IMG/VR virus record: IMGVR_UViG_3300019927_000017
Span: 1 to 64,000 of that record
Direction: 5' to 3' (one strand)
DNA: 64,000 nucleotides
Origin: a virus
Shown here: positions 2,199 through 61,881 of the stretch, in pieces
How the letters are laid out: each line of letters opens with the position of its first letter
How positions within the stretch are numbered: the first letter of the stretch is position 1
Translations under genes and position numbers: made by a program
The notes under the pieces: generated by a model
The model's database searches: none
The model's input: the letters and a program-made list of their open reading frames with translations, nothing else
What the model was told of the DNA's origin: nothing

Positions 2199-2255
2199 CG
2201 TTGGGTTGTGTCCCGCCTCGTTAACGAGGAAGCGGCTCTCGTTCCCTGTTGTTAC

Positions 2256-2652
2256 TCGAAGGGAAGGGTCGAGTCCGGGGGTCGAAGGGCGTATAAATTC
2301 CCCTTCGACCCTAACCGGAGAGGCTATCTCTTGGCATCAGGTTGCGTGACTTCATCGCCTTAAGGGTTGGAAGTTGTCTCTCGACTTCCTCGTCAGCCTT
2401 CTTTGCTTCGAAGGCGAAGGCCGCATCGCTCCTTACAACGCTGGTCGAAGGAACTCTTCGACCTGAAACCCCGTTACGCCATTTGTCTTAGGAACTCATT
2501 ACCCGTAACTCCCTCTTCGACCGGAACCCCTCTCGGGGCCTTTGTCGAAGGCTTCAACGTCCGGTTTTCCGTGGCTGTCTTTGGCTCTGTCACGGTGTCA
2601 TCGTGACCCTCCTGAGTCGTTCGGTCTTCGTGGACTTTCAAGGGGTCGAAGG
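2256..2652. repeat. array of GGTCGAAGG / CCTTCGACC units, several forming inverted-repeat pairs
   Basis: GTCGAAGG at 2281, 2444, 2544 and 2645. CTTCGACC at 2303, 2456 and 2515. Related units at 2256 and 2406. Confidence 0.6.
2279..2311 (-). promoter_or_regulatory. 11-bp perfect inverted repeat flanking a TATAAAT element (candidate operator/promoter for gene 1101..2198)
   Basis: GGGTCGAAGGG-cgTATAAATtc-CCCTTCGACCC, about 95 nt upstream of the ATG at 2198. Confidence 0.4.
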
Positions 2653-3414
2653 GTGTGAACCCCCTGAATCATCACTTCGGTTCCGGCTCGTTGCCTTTCT
2701 ACCGCCACCCTTTTCGGTGGAAGGGTGGCTGGCGATGCCTGACCGAAGCCATCCGATTCACTCGAAGAGTTTCACGTACTGACTCCGAAGGTACTTAATG
2801 GGGCGTTCAGGACTGCCGTCCTGTAATCCCGCGATGTCCTTAGCATCATTAGGGGAACTCCCTAAGCGGATGTCACCTTCCGTCATCGGGTCGATGCTCA
2901 CCCCTTAAGGGTGAACTCGCCTCGGTGCGACTTCTTCCGAAGACCGCGACATTGATTAACAAACACGAAGGGTTTCGGGTCGAACTTGGCGAAGGGGCTT
3001 CGGGGGGAACTCCCCCGACTTCGCCTTTAGGTATTCGGCGGCTACTGACACATCCTCTCGTAAGAGAGGCGCACTTTAACCGTCCCGTTCTTATCCCCCC
3101 TTACGGGTTTGCCTTAAGGGCCTAACCTACCGAGGGGCATCCATTTGCCTGCCCCCTTAAGGGGAACTCCCTTAAGGGTGCAGATTGCATCGTGCGAGGG
3201 CTGTTAAAGCCCCCAAAGGCCCCCTCCTCCCCCTTTAATAAACGCGGGGAAGGAGAGTCGCCGGGAGACACACCATAACCGCGTGGGGGTGTGTGCCCCG
3301 AGCGAGCCTGCCGAGCGAACCTGTCATACACTCAGCCCCGACACCACATAAACCTGTCGATGTCAGGACGATATAGAGAACCGGCAGTAGAACACCGTCA
3401 GACTGTCGAAAACC

Positions 3415-3510
3415 GACGATTAGAGATGAATAGAAAAGATGATGATATACTAAATTTCCGGGAAAAATCTCGATACGAAAAAGAGTATTGTGGTATAAAG
3501 AACTGTCCAG
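3415..3510. other. AT-rich tract inside the long non-coding region (candidate DNA-unwinding element)
   Basis: Local sequence gattagagatgaatagaaaagatgatgatatactaaatttcc...aaaaagagtattgtggtataaag is clearly AT-rich in a GC-rich genome. Confidence 0.35.
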
Positions 3511-3834
3511 AGAAACGACGACTCAAGGCTGGAGACTGCTGTTTTGCCGACTTGAGCAAAATAGACCGCTATTTGCTTTTGGTGACGGTAAGATTTGCCG
3601 CCCGCAGAGGGATAAATCGGTGGTATTACCGACTAATAACGGCGATTGGCTCCTCTTCGCGCCCGCGTTAAACCAAAGGGTTCCCTTCGGGGTTAAAGGG
3701 TAGCCTCTCTTCGTTAACCTCTGCTGGGCCTTATCGGTGTAACCCCCGCCCGATTCCCTTCGGAAGGGAAACATAACCCTTAGCGGTTCGCTCGCGCGTG
3801 TTAATTCACGCATCGCTCGCCAATTCCAATTCGC

Positions 3835-3916
3835 GCGAAGCCTTCGGCTTTATCGCTCGGGCGAAGCCTTCGGCTTTTAAAAGCGTGCGAATTAATCGCG
3901 CGGGGTTAATCGCGCG
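3835..3916. repeat. two short direct-repeat pairs: GCGAAGCCTTCGGCTTT x2 and TTAATCGCGCG x2
   Basis: Copies at 3835/3861 and 3892/3906. Each GCGAAGCC-TTCG-GGCTT unit is itself a hairpin. Confidence 0.6.
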
Positions 3917-3964
3917 ACGTTAACGGCGCGTGCAGAAAGAGCCGGGGCGCGAGCGGCGGGCGCG

Positions 3965-4004
3965 AAAAAAAAAAGCCCCCCACCCCAACCCTGTAAAGGG
4001 TTGG
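3965..4004 (-). terminator. hairpin plus T10 run ending the minus-strand operon 6187->4037
   Basis: On the minus strand, CCAACCC-tttaca-GGGTTGG is followed by a G-rich spacer and TTTTTTTTTT (A10 at 3965-3974 on the plus strand). Confidence 0.55.
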
Positions 4005-4036
4005 AGTGAGGGGCCAGAGTCCTTCGGGATACGAAA

Positions 4037-4309
4037 TCAGGCTTCTACTTCGTAGGCTGTTTGAACCACCTTGTCCTTCGGACAGACCTTCACCTCGAAG
4101 GTGCTGAAGAGCCAATCACCCCGAAGGGTGATGCATCGGTCGGAGCCTCCTTCGTTGCTATCGACATCTACGATGTCGCCCCCTTCGATGATGTCGGTAA
4201 CGACATCACCCTCCAGCATCTCCCTCTCCCTCATCCTTTGGATGAGATGGGTCGAAGCCTCGTAGTTCGAAGCATCTCTGTCTAACTCGAACTGTTGTTC
4301 GAGTTTCAT
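4037..4309 (-). CDS. hypothetical protein (90 aa)
   Basis: ORF 4037..4600 trimmed to the internal ATG (MKLEQQFELD...), which overlaps the upstream stop (ATGA). The longer N-terminus is Arg-rich out-of-frame-like sequence. Confidence 0.6.
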   Translation of the reverse strand: MKLEQQFELDRDASNYEASTHLIQRMREREMLEGDVVTDIIEGGDIVDVDSNEGGSDRCITLRGDWLFSTFEVKVCPKDKVVQTAYEVEA

Positions 4310-4539
4310 CGGCCTTCCCCCCTTCGGGGGTCGTCCTTCGGCCAAGGCTTCGTAGCCTCTTCGAGGAAGTCTAAGACTTCGTTTGGTTCCATCAGTCCCA
4401 TAGGGACTATCCCTACCGGAGTTTCCCAGCCCCAACCTAACAGGTTGGAAGCGGCGATGTTGTCCCATCCTTCGGATGACACCTTCGGGGCGACTTCGGC
4501 GTAGTACCCTTCGGCTCCGACTCCTTCGGAGTCGTTCAT
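4306..4539 (-). CDS. hypothetical protein (77 aa)
   Basis: Trimmed to the ATG at 4539 (MNDSEGVG...). ATGA coupling at both ends. Confidence 0.55.
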   Translation of the reverse strand: MNDSEGVGAEGYYAEVAPKVSSEGWDNIAASNLLGWGWETPVGIVPMGLMEPNEVLDFLEEATKPWPKDDPRRGEGR

Positions 4540-4865
4540 TGCCGACCTCCGAAGTCGGTGACGGCCTTCTGGAAGGCATCTTCGGAGTAGGTTCCACCAC
4601 AATGCATCGAAGATGCCATCATCACCGTTTCCCAAGTAGGGTCTTGGAGGGCTTCGAGGATGAAGAGAACTCCCCGGTAATCTTCTTCGAAGTAGCCCCG
4701 GTCTTCGACATCTTGGGGCTTATCAGCCCCATCGAGAAGTTCGTAACGAACTTGGTTCCCGACTCGGCAGAGGGTTTCACCCTCTGTCTCTTCGACGGTG
4801 GCTCTCCACTCTTCCAGAGTGACCCTCTCGAACTCTTCGAGTTCGCTTCGTAGTTCGAAGGACAT
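4536..4865 (-). CDS. hypothetical protein (109 aa)
   Basis: Trimmed to the ATG at 4865 (MSFELRSELEEF...). Confidence 0.6.
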   Translation of the reverse strand: MSFELRSELEEFERVTLEEWRATVEETEGETLCRVGNQVRYELLDGADKPQDVEDRGYFEEDYRGVLFILEALQDPTWETVMMASSMHCGGTYSEDAFQKAVTDFGGRQ

Positions 4866-4866
4866 C

Positions 4867-5307
4867 TTAGATGTCCTCCTCGATGGCTTCGACTGCCTCT
4901 CTGACCTCTTGGTCAGAGGCCCCCTTCGGGGTATCGAACTCTTCGAAGGCTCCGATAAGGGTCGGAGTGTCGTTATCGACCAGTTCACAGAACTGGAACT
5001 GTCCTTCGGAGGGAACTCGGCAGAGTTCACCCATCTCGGCTTCCTCTGCCGTTGGCAGAGGGGGAAGGTCTTCGACCTGCTCTTCTAAATCGCTGATTAC
5101 ATCAGCGACCTTATCGGTGTCTTCCTCCACTTCTCCGAAGTGGGCTTCCTCTGCTCTTCGAGCCTGACCTTCGGCGGTGTCGGCATCTCCGATGCCGAAC
5201 CCTTCGAACCCAGCCTCTTCGAGGCTTGAAGGTGGCTCTTCGGTGAGGCTTCGGACTTCGTTGTTTTCGCTCTGTTCAACATCTTCGATGTTGGCTTCGT
5301 CGGTCAT
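4867..5307 (-). CDS. acidic hypothetical protein (146 aa)
   Basis: ORF track. GGGACACAACC box before the ATG. Contains DTDKVA. Confidence 0.65.
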   Translation of the reverse strand: MTDEANIEDVEQSENNEVRSLTEEPPSSLEEAGFEGFGIGDADTAEGQARRAEEAHFGEVEEDTDKVADVISDLEEQVEDLPPLPTAEEAEMGELCRVPSEGQFQFCELVDNDTPTLIGAFEEFDTPKGASDQEVREAVEAIEEDI

Positions 5308-5396
5308 TGTAGGTTGTGTCCCGGCTTCTTCGAAGCCGAAGCCTTGCCGTCATCTTCGATGATGGTCATCGGCATCGGTATCACTATGTGATAACT

Positions 5397-5417: not shown

Positions 5418-5437
5418 TCTTTAAATCCCGAAGGGAT

Positions 5438-6187: not shown

Positions 6188-6316
6188 TGCAGTTTCCACT
6201 CAATCCCGATAGACCATAAAGGTTCCGGTGGCCTGACGAAGGGGGGTCGCATCTCGATTGCACGCACGAGTCCGGCGATTCTGACACCTTACCATGGTAC
6301 ACCTTCAGATGGGTAA

Positions 6317-6833
6317 AATACGGTGTGATAGGCTACGAATACAAGGGGCAATACAGGCAGTAGAGCATGGTGAGCAGGCCGAGAACGGCAAGAACGGGGC
6401 TTATCGGTGCAAACACCCCGATGAGAGAGTTAGGCTGACCAAAAAGTAGAGTGTAGCCCAAGGAGAGAGGCTGAGACGGTGGGATTGGTGGAGATGTCGC
6501 GTCAGAAGTTGAGGAGAGAACCGGCGGTAGAGTAACCCGAAACCCTCGATTCAGAGGGTTGAGGGTAGGCTGATGAACCCCCCTGTATGGAGGCCAAGAC
6601 AGGGGGGTGGAAAGAGGCGGTATTTGCCCTGAAGTGGGTTATTTCCGGTGACTTCAGTCTGTTGTGAAGGCAGAAGAGCCGCTAAGACCGGCATCAGGGC
6701 TGAAACTCTGAAGTCTGACATGAAGTGAAGGGGGGTGAACCCCCGGAAATGTGCAGAACAGGCCCGTTGATGGTGTGAAGTGCCTGAACTCAGGGGGGTG
6801 GGGTGAACCGGCGCGTGCCGATTATTTCACACC
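6317..6833. other. ORF-free purine/G-run-rich region with repeated GGGGGGTG(AACC) and TGAAGT words
   Basis: No ORF of 60 aa or more in any frame. G6 runs near 6603, 6733, 6793, 6913 and 7008. Confidence 0.5.
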
Positions 6834-7102
6834 ATGCGTTGCACCCGCATGGATGGACATGACTGTGGGGCTACATGGCAGGTAGAGAGCCAGATGAGGC
6901 CGATGAGGGGGGTTAGTACATTGGACCGAGCGCACGCGCATTACTTTAGTAACCCAGCGCACGTTGCAGAGCCGTCTCAGTCAGATTTTGGTCGAAATCG
7001 GGGTGGGGGGATTCGCTCTGCTCACTTCAGATTGGGAAATTCTGACATTTTGGCCCATTTTCGACCCCGAAGAGTCATACGTGACGGGGATAGACCCCAA
7101 GC

Positions 7103-7387
7103 GTGAACCGCCACCTGAAAAAGCGCGACGACACAACCTTTCCGACGTGGACTTCGGAGATTTCGAGCGACGAATCGCCGACCGTGCGGCTCGCGGGCCT
7201 TATCGCGGTCATCAAGGGCTGTGAAATCGACCAAATGCGACCTCTCGGCGAAAACATGGACTGTGACGCCCTCGACCGGCTACTTTCGGAGGAAAACCGC
7301 CCGATTTGGGTCACGTTCCAGCATGAAGGCTACGACATCACGGTTCAGAACTCTGGTGAAGTCGAAATCGTGGAAAGCATTACATAG
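7103..7387 (+). CDS. HalOD1-like small protein (start uncertain; GTG at 7103)
   Basis: SDESPTVRLAGLIAVIKGCE...MDCDALDRLL...VTFQHEGYDITVQNSGEVEIVE matches, from memory, the halobacterial output domain 1 pattern. Confidence 0.5.
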   Translation: MNRHLKKRDDTTFPTWTSEISSDESPTVRLAGLIAVIKGCEIDQMRPLGENMDCDALDRLLSEENRPIWVTFQHEGYDITVQNSGEVEIVESIT

Positions 7388-7408
7388 ATAGCCCTGTAAC
7401 TGGGCTTC

Positions 7409-7576: not shown

Positions 7577-7591
7577 CCCCACCCCCCACGG

Positions 7592-7599
7592 TATATAAA
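7592..7599 (+). promoter_or_regulatory. TATA-like element (TATATAAA) upstream of the late operon
   Basis: AT-rich box about 165 nt upstream of the terS ATG. It would give a leader containing repeat copy 1. Confidence 0.3.
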
Positions 7600-7707
7600 C
7601 TATTGTCCTTTCATTGTAGTGAGGAGCGTGGCATAATAGACAGTCACGCAAGGTTGTGTTCACCCTGCGGGGAAGTCTCCGTGGGGACAAGCCGTTTCGC
7701 TTTACCG

Positions 7708-9184: not shown

Positions 9185-10899
9185 TGGACGAAGAACTGGC
9201 TGAAACAATCGCCGAGTCCGAAGGCGGCCTCAACGACGAGGATGCACTTCGGGAACGGTGGGACGGTCGGCCAGACCTCTTCATCGAGGATGTTTTTCGT
9301 GTTCGTGACCTGAACACGAAGACGGTCGAAGACCTCGAACTGACCGGCTATCAGCGTCAGTTTATCCACGCGATGTGGTACGGGGACGCTTCGACGCTTT
9401 CTGTACTTAAGGGCCGACGAACGGGGTACTCGTTCGTGGCCTGCCTGACGATTTTGGCGTACTGCCTGTTGAATCCGCACAGTTTCGTTGCGATTACAGG
9501 GCCGTCGAAGTCTCAGGCGAAGGACCGGATTGATGACATCTACGACCTGCTGAAGTGGTCGAAACTCAATCTGACCCGAGAGGGATGTCCGACTGACAAC
9601 ACCGACGAAATCGAACTGCCGAACGGCGCGACGATGATGGCGTTCGCGGGCAACCCGGACACCTCGCGTGGTGCTGACTCGGCTGACATCCTCTTCATTG
9701 ACGAGATGGCGTTCCTCGAAGATGAACAGGAGTCGATGAACGCTTTCGGGCCGTTCACGGCCCTCGGTGACGCAAGCACGATTCAGATTTCGACGCCGAA
9801 CACCTCGAACGACCTCTTCATGCAGGACATGGAGAACGGGTCGCCGAAGGGCGATAACGGCATCATCGCCATCGAACAGCCGTCCTTCAAGAACGCCGAG
9901 GAAATCAACGTAGAGCGTTCCCTCATCGAGCAGGGCGTCGAACCGGCCAATCCATATCAGAATATGGAGGAAGCCGAGAAGGCCCGCCAGCGTGACCCCG
10001 AGGGGTTCAAGCAGGAGTACCTGTGCAAGACCGTCTCCGACCGCTATCGGTTCTTTACCGAGGAGGGCATCGACCGGGCGGTCGAGCGCGGTCGGGCTGA
10101 CGGTCACGTTCACCATCCCGCCACGCACGCACGACTCGGCGGCAAGATGGTGATGGGCGTGGACATCGCCGCTGGTGGGAAGGACGACACCGCGATTTCC
10201 GTCTTCGAACACTACGGGCAAGACCGCCTTCTCCGCTTCCACACGGTTCTGGACGAGGAAGACCTCGATAAGGTCGGTGTGGGTGGGAAGCCTGAGAATC
10301 CGTCTGACATGGCGGCCTACATCGACTTCCTCGCCGACAACATGGGAGTCGATAAAGTCTACCTCGACAAGACCGGGGTCGGCGAAGGCTTCAACAACGA
10401 AGTCAACAAGGTGCTGGGCCGTCGGGCCGAGGGCTTCGACTTCGACAACAAGGAGAAAATCGCGGAGATGATGGGCGACTTCAACTACGCCCTTCACAAC
10501 GACCTTGTTACCCTCGTGCCGGGCGACGACGGCCTTATCGCGGCTCAACTGAAGGCCATCGTCAAGGAGAAGAACCACCGAACTTCGAAGCCGAAGTTCT
10601 CCGGCAAGGACAACGCCCCGAACGGGAAGGACGACCTCGCAATGGCGCTCGTCCTCGGTGCGTACCCGCCGAACTTCGACGCTGACCGGAACACGACTCC
10701 TGTTCAGCGTGATAACGTCTCCGGCTACCAAGACGAAGAGCCTGATGTCACGGAAGGCTCTCGCGGTGACGGTTTCGAAGCGATGCTCGGGACGAACTCC
10801 GAGTCTCGCGGCGAAACGGATGGCGACGACCACGTAGCAATAGGCACACAACCAGACACGGGCCGTAGCAGGCGTTACAACTCACGACACTCTCGATAA
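9184..10899 (+). CDS. terL: terminase large subunit
   Basis: Walker A-like KGRRTGYS, Walker B ILFIDEMAF, ISTPN coupling motif, nuclease-domain GVDIAAGGKDDTAISV. Trimmed to the ATG at 9184. Confidence 0.9.
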   Translation: MDEELAETIAESEGGLNDEDALRERWDGRPDLFIEDVFRVRDLNTKTVEDLELTGYQRQFIHAMWYGDASTLSVLKGRRTGYSFVACLTILAYCLLNPHSFVAITGPSKSQAKDRIDDIYDLLKWSKLNLTREGCPTDNTDEIELPNGATMMAFAGNPDTSRGADSADILFIDEMAFLEDEQESMNAFGPFTALGDASTIQISTPNTSNDLFMQDMENGSPKGDNGIIAIEQPSFKNAEEINVERSLIEQGVEPANPYQNMEEAEKARQRDPEGFKQEYLCKTVSDRYRFFTEEGIDRAVERGRADGHVHHPATHARLGGKMVMGVDIAAGGKDDTAISVFEHYGQDRLLRFHTVLDEEDLDKVGVGGKPENPSDMAAYIDFLADNMGVDKVYLDKTGVGEGFNNEVNKVLGRRAEGFDFDNKEKIAEMMGDFNYALHNDLVTLVPGDDGLIAAQLKAIVKEKNHRTSKPKFSGKDNAPNGKDDLAMALVLGAYPPNFDADRNTTPVQRDNVSGYQDEEPDVTEGSRGDGFEAMLGTNSESRGETDGDDHVAIGTQPDTGRSRRYNSRHSR

Positions 10900-31655: not shown

Positions 31656-31801
31656 GGGCAGTTAGCCAAACTGGTAAAGGCGGCCCGGATTAAACCGGGC
31701 TTTGCCGGGTCAGGGAGAGCCGATGATGGAGGACAATTAGAAGCCTCTTTCAGACAGTCCCCGTATGATTCGGCTTCCGGGTTCGAATCCCGGCCTGCTC
31801 G
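31656..31801 (+). tRNA. tRNA-like gene with a roughly 70-nt internal insertion (intron?); isotype unresolved
   Basis: 5' GGGCAGT-TA-GCCAAACTGGTAAAGGC (class II-like D arm). 3' CCGGG-TTCGAAT-CCCGG T arm plus CCTGCTC, which pairs 6/7 with the 5' end. I could not fold a canonical anticodon arm. Confidence 0.45.
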
Positions 31802-39415: not shown

Positions 39416-39521
39416 TGGTCTGGTTGTGTCCCGCCGCCACAGTCCGCTGACTGGGGGCGGTTTCAGGACACCGGAGAAAATCTCTCCGTACTAAACAATC
39501 AAGGCGTAGGGAGTTAAGTCT

Positions 39522-41469: not shown

Positions 41470-41675
41470 TGGTTGTGTTCCTGTGGTATCTCCAGTCCGA
41501 GTTCATCTCGGAGTTTCTTCCAGTTCCCGCTGAGACTCGCGTTTTGGTCGGGAGTGTAGGCAACTACCCGAACCATGTCAGGCGGGGTTATCATGATGTC
41601 AAAGAGTTCAAACTCGGTGTCGTTGAGGTACACCGAGTCTCCCTCTTCCAGCCCCTCAACGAAGGGGCCTTCCAT
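41466..41675 (-). CDS. hypothetical protein (69 aa)
   Basis: ORF track. Confidence 0.55.
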   Translation of the reverse strand: MEGPFVEGLEEGDSVYLNDTEFELFDIMITPPDMVRVVAYTPDQNASLSGNWKKLRDELGLEIPQEHNQ

Positions 41676-42317: not shown

Positions 42318-42504
42318 TGGTGTCTGATGTCGCACGGACTACGTGACCGTAGCCCAGTTTCTTGTCGTCCTGTTCCTCGTCGGCGAACTTCAGGTGGAGT
42401 TTCGTCGTCATCGGCGGGTCGTTGAACGACTCTACGCCTTCGAACTTCTCCAGAACCGTCTCTCCGCCGATAACTTCGTGTTCGACGTGGAGAGTAAACG
42501 TCAT
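42310..42504 (-). CDS. hypothetical protein (64 aa)
   Basis: The ATG at 42504 is directly preceded by GGGACACAACC. Confidence 0.55.
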   Translation of the reverse strand: MTFTLHVEHEVIGGETVLEKFEGVESFNDPPMTTKLHLKFADEEQDDKKLGYGHVVRATSDTNE

Positions 42505-42574
42505 GGTTGTGTCCCACACACTCCGGCTTTCATCGGCGGTGTGGTACGCCGATGTTTCAGACTCAGGGGCCGGG

Positions 42575-48640: not shown

Positions 48641-48772
48641 AGGTTGTGTCTCGCCACTTCGCAGGCGGTCGCCGGGACGGGGGGAGCGTGTGAAACAGCC
48701 CCGTCCCTGAAGCGGCCTGCGAAGCGACGAAAATGGTCGTTGTTAGTTGCCGCGCTGTGCTACTCCGCTACG

Positions 48773-50327: not shown

Positions 50328-50402
50328 TGTAAGGTTGTGTCAAGTTCTCCGGGCCGCCACTTCGAGTGGGAACTTGCTACACTCAAAGTGTTGAGGCGCA
50401 CC

Positions 50403-51286: not shown

Positions 51287-51361
51287 TTTGAGGTTATGTC
51301 TCGCCGTTGGCGTCGTTGTGGTGAGGCGTCTCCGACCCGCAACGCCAGCAGGGTCGGCCCA

Positions 51362-51437
51362 TAGTCCCGGTGAGATTCGAACTCACGGTAACTCCGGTTC
51401 CAAAGACCGGCGCTTTTGGCCGCTTTGCTACGAGACT
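51362..51437 (-). tRNA. tRNA-Gln (anticodon UUG)
   Basis: AGTCTCG/CGGGACT acceptor stem with A discriminator, as in archaeal tRNA-Gln. Anticodon arm CCGGT-CTTTGGA-ACCGG. T arm GTGAG-TTCGAAT-CTCAC. Weak D stem and long variable loop. Confidence 0.7.
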
Positions 51438-51823
51438 AACTGCTTTTCAAGTTCACATTTTTCAATGCTACTATACTTCCGCCGCAACTCTGTTTTTGGA
51501 GCGTCTTTTTTCCATAACCAGTACACAGAGTCGGAATACTGGTCGTATAGAGCAAAGGCGTCAACGTCTTCATCAGAGTATTCTTCATCTCTGTTGTCGC
51601 CGGTAGCCCGGCGAATTTGACGCTGAAGATTTGCTCGGAACGTGTCGTCTCTCGACCCGTCCTTGTAGCCTCGCTTGACCTGAACCTTCACGAGGTCGCC
51701 CTCGATGTCGGCAATTAGGTCGTAGCGGTCTTCAAGAACCGGCTTCGAGACATTGAAGCCGAGTTCAAGAAGATTGGTTGCTACTATCTGTTCTGCTATC
51801 TCGCCGTTACGATTAGTGTCCAT
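51428..51823 (-). CDS. PD-(D/E)XK-type endonuclease-like protein
   Basis: GEIAEQIVATNLLELGF...RYDLIADIEGDLVKVQVK pattern. Trimmed to the ATG at 51823. Its last codons overlap the 5' end of tRNA-Gln. Confidence 0.55.
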   Translation of the reverse strand: MDTNRNGEIAEQIVATNLLELGFNVSKPVLEDRYDLIADIEGDLVKVQVKRGYKDGSRDDTFRANLQRQIRRATGDNRDEEYSDEDVDAFALYDQYSDSVYWLWKKDAPKTELRRKYSSIEKCELEKQLVS

Positions 51824-52561: not shown

Positions 52562-52635
52562 AGCAGGAACGTGGACTCGAACCACGGACTTGCTACTTAC
52601 GAAGTAGCCACTCTTCCGAACTGAGTTATTCCTGC
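52562..52635 (-). tRNA. tRNA-Thr (anticodon CGU)
   Basis: Clean cloverleaf: GCAGGAA acceptor, ACTC/GAGT D stem, GCTAC-TTCGTAA-GTAGC anticodon arm, CGTGG-TTCGAGT-CCACG T arm. Confidence 0.85.
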
Positions 52636-52891
52636 ACGAAAAGGAGGCGACCAAACCTCCCGTGTTCCCAACCGAAGTGGCGGGACACAACCTTCCGAGG
52701 AGTCAACCTCGGGCCTGACAGTACAGTCCTGACTCCCTTAAGTTTTGAGAGTCACGGGGAGAAAAGCCCCGGTTTCGCTATGGACTGTAAAGGGTGAGCG
52801 GCCCTCGGGTTTTCCGACCCCGGAATGGGTAGTCGAGGATGGGCGGTAGCCAGCATCATCGACCTCCCTACTACACTAAAGACGGTACAAT

Positions 52892-52915
52892 GACTTAAGT
52901 CTGGCGATTCAAGTC
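52892..52915. promoter_or_regulatory. paired palindromes GACTTAAGTC / GATTCAAGTC
   Basis: Spaced by 4 nt, in the intergenic region upstream of 53042. Confidence 0.45.
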
Positions 52916-53041
52916 TTAGGTTGTGGCCGGGTGCTACCCCTTATTCACCACTTGAACCCCTCTACACACCGGAAAAATGCAGTTAACGATGACAAGGACT
53001 TAAGGGGGTTCGCTTCTTGTCTTTGAACATAGGTGAATAGC

Positions 53042-53626
53042 ATGGCTAAGAAGACCAGCACCAAAACTAAAAAGCATAAGAATAACGAGAAAACTGTCAA
53101 GTGTCCCGCCGAAGGATGTGAAAAGGAAGTTCTCGCTCGTGGATTACATCTCCACGTCAGAAGGAGTAGCGGGAACGGTCACGGTGAACAAAATGAGATT
53201 CCAGACGACCTCGACCTCGATAACGCAGAGGAAGTCGGAACGCGAGAGGTCGAAATGAATTACCCCGAAGAGCGGGAGTCGGAGCAAGTCGCCCGGCTCT
53301 GTCCGTACTGCGAGCGTCCCTACCGAGGGAAGCACGGCGTCATGATTCACCTCGGTCAGGTCGCCGGTCGGAAGAATCATCCAGAAGATGCGCCGGAACG
53401 TCACGAACCCGACGACTTCGCCATCGTCCACGTTGACGAGAACGAGAACGTGGTCGAGGTAGTCGAGGAGCCGACCTCGATGCCTTCGACCGAACGTCGT
53501 CAGGAGCAGGAGGCCGAGGGCGGCTCTCTTGACGCTGACGAGGTTCGTGAATACATCGACGGCCTTCGGGAGCAAGGACTCGAAGAAGAGGCAGAGAGAG
53601 CCGAGCAGATGCTACTGAGCGATTGA
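53042..53626 (+). CDS. zinc-finger protein with basic N-terminus and acidic C-terminus
   Basis: CPAEGCEKEVLARGLHLHV and CPYCERPYRGKHGVMIHL (C2H2-like). ATG at 53042. Confidence 0.65.
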   Translation: MAKKTSTKTKKHKNNEKTVKCPAEGCEKEVLARGLHLHVRRSSGNGHGEQNEIPDDLDLDNAEEVGTREVEMNYPEERESEQVARLCPYCERPYRGKHGVMIHLGQVAGRKNHPEDAPERHEPDDFAIVHVDENENVVEVVEEPTSMPSTERRQEQEAEGGSLDADEVREYIDGLREQGLEEEAERAEQMLLSD

Positions 53627-55671: not shown

Positions 55672-55727
55672 CAGCGTTGAGGGCGCTGTCCCGTAGGGGT
55701 CCGCCGGTTCGAATCCGGTCCCACGCA
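55672..55727 (+). other. 3' fragment of tRNA-Leu (anticodon GAG): candidate attP core
   Basis: CAGCG-TTGAGGG-CGCTG anticodon arm, variable arm TCCCGTAGGGGTCC, T arm GCCGG-TTCGAAT-CCGGT, CCCACGC-A. No 5' acceptor or D arm upstream. Confidence 0.7.
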
Positions 55728-55780
55728 TACGAAGGCTTCCGCCTTCTTGCGATTTTGAGGCCCGATAGGAGTATCAACAG

Positions 55781-56938
55781 ATGGAACTCCCAATCGGCCT
55801 TGAGAACTGTGACGTTAAATTAAACGGCGACCTCGACCCCGGCAGAAGCATCACCGTCATCCCACAATCGCACGACGACGTGCTGGATGACAAGCAACTC
55901 ATCGACTACAAGGCCCAGCGAATCGACTTTTTGTCATGGCTGTTGAACGTCGGGAAGCACCCCGACCGCGCCGAAGGCTACGCTGAGTACACCGTGTATT
56001 CAACGGCCTACCGGACAGCCCGCTTCGACAAGTGGCTGTGGCAAGAGCGCGGCGAGTACGTCTACCCACCGTCCAAGCAGGACGCCGACGACTTTCTCGA
56101 CTATCTGGCCTACTCCGATAAGGGCCAGACGGAGAAAGGGAAGTTACAAGAAGGCATCCAGCACCTCGGCAAGTGGCTTCAACACGAGCGAGGCGGCGAC
56201 GAGTGGGAGTTCGACTTCAAGTTCGACGGAACGGGCGGGAATCACCAGCCTCAAGACTTCCTGACGTACAGCGAACGGCGTGCCATCCGTCAGGAGGCCC
56301 TGAACCACGGGGAGATACCCGACTACAACTCCCTCTCAGTCGAAGAACGCAACGGCTGGAAGCACCACATCGCCAACATCCTCGGGAAGGAATACGACGA
56401 CGTGGAGCCTGAAGACTTCGACCGAGTGGATGGCTGGAAGATTCCGTCTCTCGTTTGGGTCAGCCTCGATGCTGGCCTTCGACCGGACGAAGTGAGCAAC
56501 GTCCGAGAGTCGTGGATTGACACCGAGAACGCCGTCCTGCGTATCCCGAAGGCCGAGTCGTCCAAGAACGAAGGCAACTGGACGGTCAGCCTCACGGAAC
56601 GCACAGCGACGGCGGTCGAACGGTGGAAGGAAGAGCGGGATATGTACGACCGATACCACAACTCCCATCTGTTGTGGTTGACGAATCGCGGGAATCCCTA
56701 CGGTTCGAAGTCTCTCCGCCGTCTTCTCCACAAACTGTGCGAGGGAGCAGGCATCGAGACGGCGAACCGCCAGATGTCGTGGTACACAATCCGTCACTCG
56801 GTGGGGACGCTGATGACGAAGGAGCGTGACCTCGCCGCTACGAAGTCACAACTCCGCCACAAAGCCCCGAAGACCACGATGAAGTACGACCAAGTGCCGG
56901 TTGACGACCGGCGAGATGCGCTGGACAACATGGGATAA
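55781..56938 (+). CDS. int: tyrosine recombinase / phage integrase
   Basis: GLRPDEVSNVR, TIRHSVGTLM, LRHKAPKTTMKYDQV (R..H-x-x-R..Y pattern). Confidence 0.92.
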   Translation: MELPIGLENCDVKLNGDLDPGRSITVIPQSHDDVLDDKQLIDYKAQRIDFLSWLLNVGKHPDRAEGYAEYTVYSTAYRTARFDKWLWQERGEYVYPPSKQDADDFLDYLAYSDKGQTEKGKLQEGIQHLGKWLQHERGGDEWEFDFKFDGTGGNHQPQDFLTYSERRAIRQEALNHGEIPDYNSLSVEERNGWKHHIANILGKEYDDVEPEDFDRVDGWKIPSLVWVSLDAGLRPDEVSNVRESWIDTENAVLRIPKAESSKNEGNWTVSLTERTATAVERWKEERDMYDRYHNSHLLWLTNRGNPYGSKSLRRLLHKLCEGAGIETANRQMSWYTIRHSVGTLMTKERDLAATKSQLRHKAPKTTMKYDQVPVDDRRDALDNMG

Positions 56939-56949
56939 ACCGCATCCCA

Positions 56950-58731: not shown

Positions 58732-58734
58732 GAT

Positions 58735-59211: not shown

Positions 59212-59576
59212 AGGTTGGTGTCTAACTCTCTGTCCTGCCACTTCTCGGCGACTTCCTTCGCTCTCTCACTACCCGGCGAGTCAACGACATCGGCGAGGTC
59301 GCGGATGTACTCCACAACGTCGTCGTTGTCGCCGTCCCACCGCTGGTCCGACACGCACTTCAGGCTCTTCGCCAGTTCCCGCGCTTCGTCGGCGGTGTAG
59401 TAGGCGTTGTCATCAGCGCCGATGTCAACGACCACGCACCGCTCGTTGTCGGTGACGCCGAGGGTGATGCTGGCTACTTCGCCGTCGATGATGGCGTTCG
59501 ATACGTCGCTCTGAAGGTCTGATTCGTACATGATGTCAGCATCTTTCTGGAGCGCGTTGATAGTTTGCATCTTCAA
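59208..59576 (-). CDS. hypothetical protein (122 aa)
   Basis: ORF track. Confidence 0.6.
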   Translation of the reverse strand: MKMQTINALQKDADIMYESDLQSDVSNAIIDGEVASITLGVTDNERCVVVDIGADDNAYYTADEARELAKSLKCVSDQRWDGDNDDVVEYIRDLADVVDSPGSERAKEVAEKWQDRELDTNL

Positions 59577-59772
59577 CGACGCCAGCCCGCTCCAGAGCGT
59601 ACTTGATGGCGTCGTCTTTCGTCATCATCCAGTCTCCCTGTACTTGTTCATCGGTCTGTGAAGTGACTATCCAGTCACCCGAACCGCGCCGGTCGTGGCA
59701 CAGTTCATACATCCCATCGTCGGTGATGACTCGGGTCTTTTCTTGATTCTCGTCAGCGATTGTTGCTATCAT
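59536..59772 (-). CDS. hypothetical protein (78 aa)
   Basis: The ATG at 59772 is preceded by the box variant GGGGACACAAAC. Confidence 0.55.
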   Translation of the reverse strand: MIATIADENQEKTRVITDDGMYELCHDRRGSGDWIVTSQTDEQVQGDWMMTKDDAIKYALERAGVVEDANYQRAPERC

Positions 59773-59848
59773 AGTTTGTGTCCCCATCAGCCGTGGGCAT
59801 CATCAGGGGTCGGATGGCTACTCCCAACCCGAAGGGGTTGCCCCCTTT

Positions 59849-60001
59849 TCACCCGTTGATGGTCGCCCATTGGTTCCGGCAACTCTTACAGAGGAGACTT
59901 CCCTTGAACTTCCGCACCTCTGTTGAGGAACCGCACTTCTCGCAACTGTCGCCGGTCGGAAGGAACGCAATCTCCCGTTGCGGCGAATCGTTACTGTCCA
60001 T
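59849..60001 (-). CDS. tiny zinc-ribbon ORF (50 aa)
   Basis: MDSNDSPQREIAFLPTGDSCEKCG...LLCKSCRNQW. 11-nt overlap with the upstream stop. A hairpin follows. Confidence 0.45.
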   Translation of the reverse strand: MDSNDSPQREIAFLPTGDSCEKCGSSTEVRKFKGSLLCKSCRNQWATING

Positions 60002-60338
60002 CCTCCACTACCACCTCACTCGCCGCGTTCTCCGCCGCGTCTGCGGGCTTCTCGGCGAGTTCAGCGTGTTCCTCCACCACGTCGATGAAGGTGTTGATGA
60101 TGGTGCGGGTGGTGTCCCGCTTCGAGACTGAGGTTCCCTGCTTGGCGTGCGTCTCCTTCACCAGCCGGTCGAAGGCCAGCGAGTCGTTCTCCCGAAGTTC
60201 CTGCGCTTCGTCTGAGAACGCGGCGCAGGCCGCCGCCGCTCGGAACGCCGCTGTGTTCCGCACCAGTTCAGCCAGTTCGTCGTTGCTCATCCCGCCGAGG
60301 CTTCCGCCTACTTCTTCGACGGGCTGTTCATCAGTCAT
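59991..60338 (-). CDS. hypothetical protein (115 aa)
   Basis: ORF track. Confidence 0.55.
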   Translation of the reverse strand: MTDEQPVEEVGGSLGGMSNDELAELVRNTAAFRAAAACAAFSDEAQELRENDSLAFDRLVKETHAKQGTSVSKRDTTRTIINTFIDVVEEHAELAEKPADAAENAASEVVVEDGQ

Positions 60339-60474
60339 CGCTGACTGCCTCCACTTCGGCGATGTGGTCGGGGTCGATGCCGAGTTCGTCGGCGACGGCC
60401 TGTCTTCGGCCCTCGAACCCGTGGTGTTCGCCTTCGACTTCGACGCCTACCTCTGCTTCGAGCAGTTCACTCAT
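60331..60474 (-). CDS. small acidic ORF (47 aa)
   Basis: MSELLEAEVGVEVEGEHHGFEG... 8-nt overlaps at both ends. Confidence 0.4.
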   Translation of the reverse strand: MSELLEAEVGVEVEGEHHGFEGRRQAVADELGIDPDHIAEVEAVSDD

Positions 60475-61798
60475 TGGAACCACCGTCCGTCATCGCCTCG
60501 GCGTCGTCGTCGCCAGAGACTTCAGCGATAAGGCTCGTGCGGAGTTCTTCGTTGCGAGACTCGAACTCGTCGGCCTTGTCTTTCACCGATTGGGTGAACT
60601 CCTCGATGTTGGCGTGAGCCTTCTCGCCTTCGAGGTTCTGCTGTTCGCCCTCGGTCTGCGAAGCCATCCGCTCTCGGTGCTGTCGGTGAACGTTCCCGAT
60701 GACCTGCGAGGGGTTCATCACCATGTCGTTCGCCGCCTCGATGTACTCCTGAGCCGTCGAAGTGTTCTCCCCGCCCTGATAATGGTGGGTGAGAGCGTAG
60801 GTCGCTCCGTCCCACATCGCCGTCATGTCCGGGGTGAACACGTTGTCAGCCCGCTGTCGGGCGTGGCTTGCCGCCTCTCGGGAGAGGTACGTCGGGAAGC
60901 CAGCCAGTTCGTAGAAGGCTCGGATGTCGTCGTCGTGGTCGAACGGGCTGGCGAAGTCCATCTCCAGCGTATCGACTTCGATGTCTTCGGCCAGTTCGAT
61001 GAGTTCGGCCAGCCGGTTCGTCATCAGTTCCATCTCTTCCAGCACGTCAGTCACCTCGTCTTCGAGGTCAACTTCGCCGACGTGTCGGATGGTCTTCTTC
61101 TCGGTGATGGAGCGGATGGAGTTGTCGCACCGGGTGTCCTGTGCGAAGCCCTCGAAGTAGAGGGCGGTGTCGCCGAAGAAGTCGTACCCGGTTCGGACAC
61201 CGAGGACGATGGGGTCACGGCCATCGTCGTCGTTCGAGTAGTCGATTTGGAAGGCGTCGAAGAGAACGTCCATGTGGACTTCACCGCCCTCCTTGTACTG
61301 CCGAATCTCTCCGAAGATGTCGTCGCCGTAGCCTTCGTCGCGGATGGCTTCTTCCAGCGGTTCGTAGGCGGTCAGCGGGTTGACGATGGAGTACGTCTTG
61401 GTCGGGACGTGCCACAGAGCATCGTCCACCTGTTCGGTGTCGTCATCGTCAGACTGGAACCACGAGCGGAGTTTGTCTGGCGAGTAGACCGACTGGAAGC
61501 GGTCAGTCTCCACGTAAACGGTGTCGGAACTCGCTCGGGTCGCCTCTGCTCCTTCTGGAAGCAGGTCGTTGAGGGCCGACACGTCTACCTTCTGCGCGAT
61601 GTTCTCGGGAACCTTCCACGCCAGTTCTCCGGCTTCGGCCTGTTCGAGGTCACGAATCGCCGTGGCGAGCGAAGTCTGCGGCGGGTCGTCGGGGTCGATG
61701 CCCGCGATGCCTGCCGCGCTGTCGCCCATCTCGGCGTTGTTGTGCGAAGTCAGTCCAGCGAACGTCGTCGTCTCGGTTGGGGTGTTGCTTCGTCGCAT
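60467..61798 (-). CDS. DUF932-like protein (phage/plasmid-associated family, tentative)
   Basis: LGVRTGYDFFGDTALYFEGFAQDTRCDNSI resembles the DUF932 core. The ATG at 61798 is preceded by GGGACACAACC. Confidence 0.65.
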   Translation of the reverse strand: MRRSNTPTETTTFAGLTSHNNAEMGDSAAGIAGIDPDDPPQTSLATAIRDLEQAEAGELAWKVPENIAQKVDVSALNDLLPEGAEATRASSDTVYVETDRFQSVYSPDKLRSWFQSDDDDTEQVDDALWHVPTKTYSIVNPLTAYEPLEEAIRDEGYGDDIFGEIRQYKEGGEVHMDVLFDAFQIDYSNDDDGRDPIVLGVRTGYDFFGDTALYFEGFAQDTRCDNSIRSITEKKTIRHVGEVDLEDEVTDVLEEMELMTNRLAELIELAEDIEVDTLEMDFASPFDHDDDIRAFYELAGFPTYLSREAASHARQRADNVFTPDMTAMWDGATYALTHHYQGGENTSTAQEYIEAANDMVMNPSQVIGNVHRQHRERMASQTEGEQQNLEGEKAHANIEEFTQSVKDKADEFESRNEELRTSLIAEVSGDDDAEAMTDGGSNE

Positions 61799-61881
61799 AG
61801 GTTGTGTCCCGGTTTGTATCATTGCGCTGGGTGGCGCTGATGGGGTGGAGCAGAATCGAACTGCTCGCCGCCCTTTCACCC

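What the first reader, a model, noticed from the sequence alone, without database searches (positions are those of the whole stretch)
2204..61810. Conserved GGGACACAACC box 0-6 nt upstream of the ATG of many minus-strand genes
On the coding strand the box G(G/A)GACA(C/T)AACC lies 0-6 nt (mostly 0-3 nt) upstream of the start codon of the genes starting at 2198, 5307, 39415, 41469, 42504, 48640, 50327, 51286, 59772 and 61798. Plus-strand coordinates of the box are 2204, 5312, 39422, 41471, 42505, 48642, 50333, 51292, 59774 and 61800. A weaker copy precedes the start at 59211.

A shorter relative, TAACCCAAC(C), precedes the rtcB start (33958) and the start at 62907. Three copies share a longer upstream context, GAAGTGGCG (48.65, 50.35 and 52.68 kb).

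One copy, at 52682-52692, is in the opposite orientation and is not followed by any ORF. It may mark the 5' end of a plus-strand non-coding RNA.

The box is not complementary to the canonical anti-Shine-Dalgarno sequence. It usually follows a hairpin, and at 2198 it sits well downstream of the nearest TATA-like element. It therefore looks like a 5'-UTR or processing-site element rather than a promoter. Plus-strand late genes do not have it.
Basis: seen in the sequence. Interest (0 to 1): 0.75.

Follow-up and report, generated by a model that had tools for sequence, protein, structure and literature searches.

The report
Start-codon box with matching antisense RNA
A salt-loving archaeal virus places the same 11-letter tag directly before the start codon of about ten early genes, and it also encodes a small structured RNA, attached to a viral tRNA, that carries the exact complement of the tag; this looks like an undescribed RNA switch for viral protein synthesis.

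Summary
G(G/A)GACA(C/T)AACC sits 0-6 nt before the ATG at all ten listed minus-strand genes. There are 8 exact matches against 0.14 expected. Nine of the 15 ACAYAACC copies abut an ORF start (P = 2e-10). The window is a haloarchaeal tailed virus of the Hafunaviridae. The box precedes start codons in the same way in HSTV-2 and sits before orthologous genes in metagenomic relatives, while its flanks diverge.

The box is not a promoter and not a Shine-Dalgarno site. HF2-type promoters lie 30-100 nt upstream of it. Its core is predicted to be single-stranded, directly after a hairpin.

The main new result concerns the single inverted "orphan" copy at 52682-52692. It is conserved at the same genomic position in every relative examined. 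Read on the minus strand, it lies inside an ~81-nt RNA with three hairpins (52716 to 52636). A TATA-like element lies 26-30 nt upstream, and the viral tRNA-Thr begins directly after it. The RNA's exposed stretch, AAGGUUGUGU, is the complement of the box core.

Best reading (confidence about 0.5): the box is the target of a virus-encoded antisense RNA derived from a tRNA leader, and this RNA controls translation at the start codon. There are no expression data. The main rivals are a translation element that acts on its own and a DNA operator.

The parts
2204..2214 (-). Box GGGACACAACC, 5 nt before the ATG at 2198 (365-aa ORF, phrog_32210)
   Evidence: HSTV-2 gene 102 (same right-end position, not tested for orthology) has GGCGGGACACAACC 4 nt before its ATG
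5312..5322 (-). Box GGGACACAACC, 4 nt before the ATG at 5307 (146 aa); an HF2-type promoter motif lies about 100 nt upstream
39422..39432 (-). Box GGGACACAACC, 6 nt before the ATG at 39415 (small ORF); promoter motif AAGACTTAA at 39522
   Evidence: same arrangement in relative L005 at 19295
41471..41481 (-). Box variant GGAACACAACC, 1 nt before the ATG at 41469; lies inside the 3' end of the upstream gene (ATGA overlap)
42505..42515 (-). Box GGGACACAACC directly abutting the ATG at 42504
   Evidence: HSTV-2 gene 58 has ...gatgaaagccgga..GGGACACAACCATG
48642..48652 (-). Box variant GAGACACAACC, 1 nt before the ATG at 48640 (482 aa, phrog_12057); preceded by GAAGTGGCG, which also matches the anti-box RNA
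   Evidence: GACACAACC is conserved before the orthologue in L003-L007 while the flanks diverge
50333..50343 (-). Box variant TTGACACAACC, 5 nt before the ATG at 50327 (374 aa, phrog_12260); HF2-type promoter (CTTTGAGT at ~50389) with a predicted start near GAAGTGGCGG, giving a ~35-nt leader
51292..51302 (-). Box variant GAGACATAACC, 5 nt before the ATG at 51286 (180 aa); lies 58 nt downstream of tRNA-Gln
   Evidence: the C-to-T change would keep pairing with the anti-box as a G-U pair
59774..59784 (-). Box variant GGGACACAAAC, 1 nt before the ATG at 59772 (78 aa)
61800..61810 (-). Box GGGACACAACC, 1 nt before the ATG at 61798 (443 aa, phrog_13083); promoter motif at 61911-61888 and a tRNA-like T-arm helix in the ~80-nt leader
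   Evidence: HSTV-2 gene 83 has the same layout
59214..59222 (-). Weak box GACACCAAC(C), 2 nt before the ATG at 59211
   Evidence: uncertain
52636..52716 (-). Predicted anti-box RNA (~81 nt), the 5' leader of tRNA-Thr. Layout: hairpin A 52712-52695; exposed AAGGUUGUGU 52694-52685 (the full complement of the box, GGUUGUGUCCC, is 52692-52682); hairpin B ~52688-52662; hairpin C 52661-52643; UUUU 52642-52639
   Evidence: The same three-hairpin fold with an unpaired seed is found in 7 lineages (z = -1.8 to -3.5). The minus-strand fold is more stable than the plus-strand fold in 7 of 7. No Rfam family matches.
52737..52742 (-). TATA-like CTTAAG of the predicted anti-box RNA promoter; places the start at ~52716/52715
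   Evidence: an A/T core lies 26-30 nt upstream of hairpin A in 6 of 7 lineages although the sequence between them diverges
52562..52635 (-). tRNA-Thr (CGU); starts 7 nt after hairpin C of the anti-box RNA, so RNase P cleavage would release that RNA
   Evidence: a tRNA (Thr in four, Asn in one) lies ~45-160 nt downstream of the anti-box in 5 relatives
51361..51438 (-). tRNA-Gln (UUG), in the same transcription direction, between the anti-box RNA and the first box-led gene

Best explanation
The box is an RNA-level element. It lies at the 3' end of the 5' leaders and intercistronic spacers of early and middle genes. It is held single-stranded directly after a hairpin and abuts the start codon.

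Its most likely role is as the docking site for a virus-encoded complementary RNA. This 'anti-box RNA' is ~81 nt long and is transcribed on the minus strand from about 52716 to 52636, as the 5' leader of the viral tRNA-Thr. RNase P cleavage or the U-run would define its 3' end. It folds into three hairpins and leaves AAGGUUGUGU unpaired, which is the exact complement of the most conserved part of the box, ACACAACC(UU).

Pairing would cover roughly positions -1 to -20 of about ten viral mRNAs and so control translation initiation. This could work by masking the start region. Alternatively, as with the Tant/T1 duplex of phage phiH1, the duplex could guide a host RNase that cuts at duplex ends to cleave just before the AUG.

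Shown here: the motif, its position relative to start codons, its conservation, the conserved inverted copy, and the predicted fold and context of that copy.

Inferred: that the small RNA is made, that it pairs with the boxes, and whether the effect is repression or activation.
For: 1. Position. Nine of 15 core copies lie 0-6 nt before an ORF start (P = 2e-10). In HSTV-2 the figure is 10 of 15 (P = 6e-9).

2. Conservation. GACACAACC is kept before orthologous genes in IMG/VR relatives with 73-80% protein identity, while the flanks diverge.

3. Not a promoter. HF2-type promoter motifs lie 30-100 nt upstream of the box, and one box lies inside a coding region.

4. Accessibility. Mean predicted unpaired probability is 0.74 for the core, 0.41 for the upstream 70 nt and 0.25 for the GGG part.

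5. The inverted copy is conserved at the same genomic position in W, in six Mincapvirus isolates and in four metagenomic lineages.

6. Minus-strand reading of that copy. An A/T core lies 26-30 nt upstream of the first hairpin in 6 of 7 lineages. All lineages share three hairpins and an unpaired GGUUGUG. The minus-strand fold is 2.8-5 kcal/mol more stable and holds more G-U pairs in 7 of 7 lineages. A hairpin plus U-run follows in most lineages (clear in 5 of 7), and a tRNA lies downstream in 5 relatives.

7. Lineage-specific flank matches between the orphan copy and the targets. W has GTTCCCA.CCGAAGTGGCGG, HSTV-2 has CCCTACCGGAACT and ACAACCTTCC, and L005 has GAAAGTGG. A genome's own RNA is the best predicted partner for 11 of 33 targets, where 4.7 are expected.

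8. Variants inside the core are mostly C-to-T changes, which keep pairing as G-U.

9. HF2 comparison. At the syntenic position, HF2's experimentally mapped IR2 promoter drives a ~95-nt leader ahead of tRNA-Arg. This leader has the same hairpin / single strand / hairpin / U-run layout and an invariant exposed UUGGUGUCCAGC. The leader is retained even in viruses that have lost the tRNA (PMC8707807).
Against: - There are no transcript data for this RNA or for the boxes.
- Complementarity follows automatically from an inverted repeat, so it does not by itself show pairing.
- The core is invariant across all W-type and Mincapvirus genomes, so there is no true compensatory change within that group.
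- The own-versus-foreign partner test is modest. It could also reflect shared ancestry or concerted evolution of repeats.
- Half of the anti-box (UCCCG) is predicted to be paired within hairpin B.
- The HF2 parallel is weak. GACACC is only marginally enriched at starts (6 of 68 against 2.5 expected, P = 0.04). Apart from one 12-nt block, the W and HF2 leaders do not align better than shuffled sequences.
- HF2's commoner pre-ATG motif, AACCAGAGAGA, has no antisense copy. Conserved pre-ATG boxes can therefore exist without a partner RNA.
- A conserved zinc-finger protein is encoded next to the orphan copy and could bind the sequence as DNA.
Confidence: 0.5

Rival explanations
1. The box is a stand-alone cis element for translation initiation on leadered mRNAs that lack a Shine-Dalgarno site. 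It would be an unstructured C/A-rich landing site next to the AUG, recognised by the host ribosome or an initiation factor. The inverted copy in the tRNA leader would have an unrelated role or none.
For: The box is tightly linked to the AUG, its core is predicted to be unpaired, and box-led genes have no GGAGG, while tightly packed internal genes in the same clusters do. HF2 has a different conserved pre-ATG motif, AACCAGAGAGA, before five genes, with no antisense copy. Haloarchaea translate SD-less 5' UTRs by an unknown mechanism that does not involve scanning (PMC3986360).
Against: It does not explain why an inverted copy is conserved at one syntenic non-coding position in every relative, between covarying hairpins. 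It does not explain why the flanks of that copy match the target leaders in a lineage-specific way. A signal read by the host would not be expected to differ between virus genera that infect the same host genera (Halorubrum, Haloarcula).
Confidence: 0.2
2. The box is a double-stranded-DNA operator for a virus-encoded regulator, for example the conserved protein with two C2H2-like fingers encoded at 53057-53626 next to the orphan copy. The regulator would block elongating RNA polymerase in front of early genes, and the orphan copy would be the operator of the tRNA/leader unit.
For: A DNA site works in either orientation, which would explain the inverted copy. The neighbouring zinc-finger gene is conserved (55% identity to HF2 HrrHF2_225). 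The HF2 authors proposed CxxC proteins as regulators of the repeats (PMC8707807).
Against: All ten or more gene-linked copies share one orientation and sit 0-6 nt from the ATG, which a transcriptional roadblock has no need for. One copy lies inside a coding region. The core falls in predicted single-stranded RNA in both partners. G-U-type tolerance and the strand asymmetry of the folds are RNA features.
Confidence: 0.12
3. The hairpin plus box is a cleavage signal read by a protein endoribonuclease, with no antisense RNA involved. Cleavage would cut long early transcripts just before the AUG and release leaderless or near-leaderless mRNAs.
For: HF2 makes 18-35-kb transcripts that are thought to be processed (PMC8707807). 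The leaders contain tRNA-like T-arm helices and tRNAs. HF2 carries an annotated hammerhead ribozyme ending at a GACACC box. A 0-6-nt remainder fits what leaderless translation tolerates.
Against: No known RNase with this specificity can be named. It leaves the conserved inverted copy unexplained. The hairpins before the boxes share no sequence or size.
Confidence: 0.1
4. The box is part of a non-canonical promoter or initiator, and transcription starts within it to give leaderless mRNAs.
For: In three copies the box directly follows GAAGTGGCG, which resembles the start-site (gamma) part of the HF2 class I repeats.
Against: There is no TATA/BRE 24-30 nt upstream of the boxes; those positions are G+C-rich hairpins. 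The distance from the box to HF2-type promoter motifs varies from ~15 to ~100 nt, whereas its distance to the ATG is fixed. One box lies inside a gene.
Confidence: 0.03

Closest known systems
Phage P1/P7 c4 antisense RNA (immI operon) and phage P4 CI RNA
   Same: Each is a small RNA encoded by a virus at the head of the transcription unit it controls. Each is released by RNase P-type processing and has an exposed sequence complementary to repeated target sites in the virus's own transcripts. c4 masks the ribosome-binding region; CI causes premature termination. (From established knowledge; not tested here.)
   Different: Those are bacterial. The c4 targets are two sites in one mRNA, not about ten gene starts. 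There is no sequence or structure homology: the Rfam library (release 15) gave no match on the window or on this region. Here the RNA is the leader of a genuine tRNA in an archaeal virus, and its expression is unproven.
Halovirus phiH1 Tant antisense RNA against the early transcript T1
   Same: A haloarchaeal virus antisense RNA pairs with the 5' part of an early lytic mRNA. [quoted passage not shown]
   Different: Tant is a cis-encoded counter-transcript, fully complementary over 151 nt to a single target. Here a short seed of 8-14 nt would act in trans on many genes.
HF1/HF2 class I intergenic repeats (promoter repeats, Russ et al. 2021, PMC8707807)
   Same: Same virus family. They are repeated non-coding elements in front of early and middle genes. 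The window has related promoter motifs (AAGACTYAA, CTTTGAG/CTTAAG). The anti-box RNA unit is syntenic with HF2 IR2 followed by tRNA-Arg.
   Different: The repeats are 56-58-bp, AT-rich promoters with a TATA box and a mapped start site. The box is G+C/A-rich, has no TATA, is tied to the start codon and lies downstream of such promoters.
Shine-Dalgarno sites of distal operon genes in haloarchaea
   Same: A short conserved element a few nucleotides before the start codon that can lie inside the upstream gene.
   Different: The box is not complementary to the 16S rRNA 3' end (CCUCC), and it lies closer to the AUG (0-6 nt against 5-10 nt). True GGAGG sites occur before other genes of the same clusters.
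Regulatory RNAs derived from tRNA precursors (for example 3'ETS-leuZ of E. coli)
   Same: A regulatory RNA cut out of a tRNA precursor by tRNA-processing enzymes. (From established knowledge.)
   Different: That RNA is a bacterial 3' spacer acting as a sponge for other small RNAs. Here it would be a 5' leader acting directly on mRNAs of a virus.

Membership tests
HF1/HF2 class I intergenic repeat (promoter) | AT-rich beta motif with a TATA box (TCTTTAAGTC) beginning 26 nt upstream of the transcription start | tested here: not met
   The 30 nt upstream of every box are G+C-rich hairpins without a TATA. TATA-bearing motifs lie 30-100 nt further upstream.
HF1/HF2 class I intergenic repeat (promoter) | Gamma motif CGTCTNNTAGAG containing the start site | tested here: not met
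   The box sequence is unrelated to it. HF2 itself has no ACAYAACC before any gene.
Shine-Dalgarno site | Complementarity to the 3' end of 16S rRNA (GGAGG core), 5-10 nt before the start codon | tested here: not met
   GGGACACAACC contains no GGAGG and lies 0-6 nt from the ATG. The anti-SD sequence is taken from established knowledge. No host 16S rRNA sequence was available, so other regions of it could not be scanned.
Target site of a trans-acting antisense RNA (works like P1 c4 / P4 CI) | A separate locus encodes an RNA with an accessible sequence complementary to the repeated sites | tested here: met
   The minus-strand RNA 52716-52636 carries GGUUGUGUCCC. AAGGUUGUG(U) is unpaired in the minimum-energy folds of 7 lineages, and the box core is unpaired in the mRNAs. 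These are computational predictions only.
Target site of a trans-acting antisense RNA (works like P1 c4 / P4 CI) | The antisense RNA is actually transcribed and accumulates | not testable with these tools
   Indirect evidence only: an A/T core 26-30 nt upstream in 6 of 7 lineages, a tRNA downstream, and the syntenic HF2 IR2 promoter with its start site mapped experimentally (PMC8707807).
Target site of a trans-acting antisense RNA (works like P1 c4 / P4 CI) | Compensatory co-variation between the seed and its targets | tested here: inconclusive
   The core is invariant in all W-type and Mincapvirus genomes. The flanks co-vary by lineage, but shared ancestry could explain that. The HF2-type seed UUGGUGUCC against GACACC(A/G)A boxes is suggestive but only weakly significant.
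Rfam C4 antisense RNA or any other curated RNA family | Match to the covariance model at the gathering score | tested here: not met
   Only the two tRNAs are found in the window. Nothing matches the anti-box RNA even at E <= 10.
Leaderless-mRNA promoter or initiator | [quoted passage not shown] | tested here: not met
   A plausible leaderless layout does occur at other genes, for example the start at 44425.

The most novel reading that the evidence does not exclude
Hafunaviridae may carry a family-wide riboregulator in which the 5' leader of a viral tRNA precursor is a multi-target antisense RNA. It would dock on a conserved box next to the AUG of about ten early genes. It would then either shut these genes off, as a temporal or lysogeny switch, or guide a host RNase that cuts at duplex ends to trim the leaders and convert leadered mRNAs into the leaderless form that haloarchaeal ribosomes prefer. 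This would be the first trans-acting regulatory RNA described for an archaeal virus, and it would give experimental access to the unknown way in which haloarchaea start translation on SD-less leaders.
Probability: 0.3. Interest if true: 0.9.

Novelty: new variant of a known kind. Interest (0 to 1): 0.72.

Why it matters
How haloarchaea begin translation on leadered mRNAs that lack a Shine-Dalgarno site is unresolved (PMC3986360). How hafunaviruses time their early, middle and late genes, or choose lysogeny, is also unknown (PMC8707807).

This finding offers a short, sharply defined sequence placed directly before many start codons, together with a conserved complementary RNA. The pair can be mutated and tested with existing Haloferax or Halorubrum reporter systems and with viruses already in culture (HSTV-2, HRTV-7).

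If the pairing is real, it extends phage-style antisense immunity RNAs (P1 c4, P4 CI) to archaeal viruses. It would also show a regulatory use for a tRNA 5' leader. In addition, it would help set gene starts and annotate non-coding RNAs in this virus family, where the region is currently annotated as empty.

Tried and rejected
1. Promoter reading. Rejected: there is no TATA at -26, and the distance to real promoter motifs varies.

2. Peptide-coding repeat. Rejected: the spacing to the ATG is 0, 1, 4, 5 or 6 nt, so the reading frame is not kept.

3. A second anti-box in the late-operon leader (AAGGTTGTGT at 7650-7659). It is not conserved in HSTV-2 or in L147-L150, so it is treated as chance.

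4. Pattern scans of the metagenome and genome collections with GGGACACAACCTNNCGRGG. They returned only chance hits in unrelated bacteria plus duplicates of loci already held. No provirus or host was identified.

5. Genome-wide duplex scan with a 38-nt seed. Box sites rank at the top, but the G+C-rich background is too noisy to be decisive. A scan of 83 start regions with a 19-nt seed separates 8 box sites (-23 to -32 kcal/mol, against a median of -12.6). This is expected, because those sites contain the box.

6. MAFFT plus RNAalifold on the anti-box RNAs. The alignment is not structure-aware and the hairpins are shifted in register, so the consensus is poor. I did not build a covariance model and relied on single-sequence folds instead.

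7. Global alignment of the W and HF2 leaders. It is no better than shuffled sequences.

8. An antisense copy of HF2's AACCAGAGAGA motif. None was found in non-coding DNA.

9. The simple terminator scan did not flag hairpin C plus UUUU.

10. Pfam found nothing for the ten box-led proteins. PHROGs gave only families of unknown function.

11. Literature searches found no mention of the motif (ACACAACC with halovirus) and no paper linking Hafunaviridae to small RNAs.

Full report
**What the window is.** Megablast and tblastn place it among the haloarchaeal tailed viruses of the family Hafunaviridae. Proteins are about 59% identical to Mincapvirus (HSTV-2, HRTV-7) and about 49% identical to Haloferacalesvirus (HF1, HF2). 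Late structural genes occupy the plus strand at 7.7-30 kb. Early and middle genes, including the family B DNA polymerase and RtcB, are on the minus strand at 31.8-52 kb, 57-64 kb and 0-6.2 kb. Two tRNAs, Gln 51361-51438 and Thr 52562-52635, are on the minus strand.

**Checking the observation.** All ten listed sites read as stated on the coding strand, and each is followed after 0-6 nt by an ATG that opens an ORF of 51-482 codons. The core ACAYAACC occurs 15 times on both strands. Nine copies fall in the 3.4% of positions that lie 0-6 nt before an ATG-ORF of at least 50 codons (expected 0.5; P = 2e-10). The remaining copies are at chance level. GAAGTGGCG precedes the copies at 48.65, 50.35 and 52.68 kb. 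The TAACCCAAC 'relative' exists at both stated places but is not enriched at start codons. No plus-strand late gene has the box.

**It is conserved.** In HSTV-2, GGCGGGACACAACC lies 0-4 nt before the ATG of genes 58, 80, 83, 90 and 102. Variants of the form ..ACAACCTTCCAAMWATG precede genes 47, 89, 93 and 98, and gene 69 has GCAACCTTCCAAACCATG. In all, 10 of 15 core copies abut a start (P = 6e-9). In five IMG/VR contigs whose orthologue of the 482-aa protein is 73-80% identical, GACACAACC is kept 1-4 nt before that gene and before others, while the upstream flanks have diverged. The box-led genes have no Pfam match and only PHROG families of unknown function.

**It is neither a promoter nor a Shine-Dalgarno site.** HF2 promoters are 56-58-bp repeats with a TATA box starting at -26 and a mapped start site (PMC8707807). 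The window has related motifs (AAGACTYAA, then CTTTGAG or CTTAAG) upstream of the starts at 5307, 39415, 44425, 50327 and 61798. These motifs lie 30-100 nt upstream of the boxes. The 30 nt immediately before each box are G+C-rich hairpins. At 41469 the box lies within the upstream gene. At 51286 it follows tRNA-Gln. The box therefore keeps its distance to the start codon and not to any transcription start. It contains no GGAGG, whereas tightly packed internal genes of the same clusters do. In partition-function folds of the ten leaders the 8-nt core is mostly unpaired (mean 0.74). The upstream 70 nt average 0.41, and the GGG part is mostly paired (0.25).

**The inverted copy.** It is conserved at the same place, between the tRNA cluster and a divergently transcribed gene. 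It is present in HSTV-2, in HRTV-2, -7 and -11, in HCTV-6 and -15, and in four metagenomic lineages. The public records annotate nothing there. Read on the minus strand, the region has the following layout:
- a TATA-like CTTAAG at 52742-52737;
- about 26 nt further on, a pyrimidine-purine step (gtc|agg) at about 52716;
- hairpin A (CCGAGG/CCUCGG);
- AAGGUUGUGU;
- hairpin B (GUCCCG.../...CGGGA);
- hairpin C (GGGAGG/CCUCC);
- UUUU;
- 7 nt after hairpin C (3 nt after the U-run), the first base of tRNA-Thr.

Folded one at a time, the RNAs from seven lineages give the same three hairpins and leave GGUUGUG unpaired (z-scores -1.8 to -3.5), although the stem sequences differ. An A/T core lies 26-30 nt upstream of hairpin A in 6 of 7 lineages while the sequence between them diverges. 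In 7 of 7 lineages the minus-strand fold is 2.8-5 kcal/mol more stable than the plus-strand fold and contains more G-U pairs, which become C-A mismatches on the other strand. A tRNA (Thr in four, Asn in one) lies ~45-160 nt downstream of the anti-box in five relatives. The plus-strand gene next door has its own promoter motifs closer to its start, so it does not need this stretch as a leader. No Rfam family matches the RNA.

**What this implies.** The exposed AAGGUUGUGU is the exact complement of ACACAACC(UU), which is the part of the box that is most conserved and is predicted to be unpaired in the mRNAs. The less conserved GGG of the box would pair with CCC, which lies within hairpin B.

Several targets match the orphan locus beyond the box, and they do so in a lineage-specific way:
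- In W, GTTCCCA.CCGAAGTGGCGG is shared by the orphan and the 50327 leader, and GAAGTGGCG by the 48640 leader.
- In HSTV-2, CCCTACCGGAACT is shared by the orphan and the leaders of genes 67 and 47, and five targets extend the match to ACAACCTTCC.
- In L005, both the orphan and a target carry GAAAGTGG.

In a cross-genome duplex comparison, a genome's own RNA is the best partner for 11 of 33 targets, where 4.7 are expected. Changes inside the core are nearly all C to T (ACATAACC, GATACAACC), which would keep pairing as G-U.

**The HF2 comparison.** The gene next to the orphan (53057-53626, with two C2H2-like fingers) is 55% identical to HF2 HrrHF2_225. This makes the unit syntenic with HF2 IR2 followed by tRNA-Arg. 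IR2 is an experimentally verified promoter with a mapped start site (PMC8707807). Its ~95-nt leader has the same layout of hairpin, hairpin, single strand, hairpin and U-run (z = -3.6). Across Haloferacalesvirus the exposed block TTGGTGTCCAGC is invariant, and the leader is kept even where tRNA-Arg has been lost and only a tRNA-like stub remains.

The block resembles the W anti-box (GUGUCCAGCCAC against GUGUCCCGCCAC). HF2 early genes 010, 035 and 295 have GACACCGAUG or GGACACCAA at the start codon, giving 9-10 bp of complementarity.

This parallel is weak. GACACC is only marginally enriched at starts (P = 0.04). The two leaders do not align globally better than shuffled sequences. HF2's commoner pre-ATG motif, AACCAGAGAGA, has no antisense copy.

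**Mechanism.** I consider it most likely (about 0.5) that the box is the docking site of this tRNA-leader RNA and that pairing controls translation at the AUG. The arrangement resembles the c4 RNA of phage P1/P7 and the CI RNA of P4. These are small antisense RNAs encoded at the head of the operon they control, released by RNase P, and acting on repeated sites (from established knowledge; Rfam shows no homology).

A haloarchaeal precedent is phiH1. [quoted passage not shown] Such a cut at the box would fall 0-6 nt before the AUG. It could either inactivate the mRNA or make it leaderless, so the sign of the effect is open.

The rivals are:
- a stand-alone translation element (0.2), in line with the unknown SD-independent initiation in haloarchaea (PMC3986360);
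- a DNA operator for the neighbouring zinc-finger protein (0.12);
- a cleavage signal read by a protein RNase (0.1);
- a promoter (0.03).

**Limits.** All evidence is from sequence. No transcript data were available, and no host genome or rRNA could be scanned. The scans of large collections added no new lineages. The core does not vary within the W/Mincapvirus group, so strict compensatory evidence is lacking. I found no publication describing the box or the RNA.

Noticed in passing
window 61911-61888, 50447-50380, 44494-44470, 39522-39512, 31371, 5421-5396, ~1090-1065 (minus strand); 52892-52920, 52997, 54323 (plus strand): Repeated promoter-like motifs (AAGACTYAA ... CTTTGAG / GACTTAAG / AGTCTTAG) that resemble the alpha and beta motifs of the HF1/HF2 class I intergenic repeats. 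This suggests that this more distant virus uses the same promoter architecture.
   Followed up: partly
window 7592-7625 (+); HSTV-2 L146 ~665-700; L147, L148 (3' part only), L150: Late-operon promoter upstream of the small terminase gene, conserved across genera: TATATAAAC..(~18 nt)..TAGTGAGGAGC. Its start-site region resembles the HF2 gamma motif TAGAGTGAGGAG, and it is followed by a leader of ~145 nt.
   Followed up: partly
window 7650-7659 (+): AAGGTTGTGT, identical to the anti-box seed, lies in the late-operon leader. It is absent from the same leader in HSTV-2 and three relatives, so it is probably chance.
   Followed up: yes
window 61870-61830, 50500-50455, 52300-52260 (minus strand); 55690-55730 and 31765-31800 (plus strand): tRNA-like T-arm or mini-helix elements (GGTTCGAnTCC with flanking stems) that ARAGORN does not call as tRNAs. 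Several lie in the leaders of box-led genes. The one at ~55706 lies just upstream of the integrase gene (55781-56938) and may be the attP. HF2 and HSTV-2 leaders hold similar elements.
   Followed up: no
window 53057-53626 (+): A conserved protein with two C2H2-like zinc-finger motifs (CP.EGC...H.H and CPYC...H), 55% identical to HF2 HrrHF2_225. It is transcribed divergently from the anti-box RNA and is a candidate nucleic-acid-binding regulator.
   Followed up: partly
window 52720-52890: About 170 nt of non-coding sequence between the divergent promoters. It has blocks conserved in relatives (for example GTTGAGAGTC.CCGGGA..AAGCCCCGG and GGGT..GCGGCCC..TTCCGACCCCGGAA). It could be a further structured RNA or a regulatory region.
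   Followed up: no
window 5377-5306 (minus strand): The leader of the gene starting at 5307 contains a 23-codon ORF (ATGCCGATGACC...CTACAATGA). Its stop overlaps the main start codon (ATGA), so this box would lie inside a small upstream ORF.
   Followed up: no
HF2 locus L002: 18610, 19810, 20957, 31207, 34557: HF2 has its own conserved pre-ATG motif, (A)ACCAGAGAGA, 1-13 nt before five start codons (5 of 6 plus-strand CCAGAGA copies). No complementary copy was found in non-coding DNA.
   Followed up: partly
HF2 locus L002: 10292-10363: The hammerhead ribozyme annotated in HF2 (10292-10359) ends at a GACACC box, 7 nt before the helicase start codon. This hints that leader processing and the box are linked in that genus.
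   Followed up: no
window 2199-4866 and 6200-7400: Two long stretches with little coding potential, rich in hairpins and short repeats. They correspond to the ends of the linear HSTV-2 genome, so the window reads through the junction of the termini (a circularly permuted, concatemeric or integrated form).
   Followed up: no
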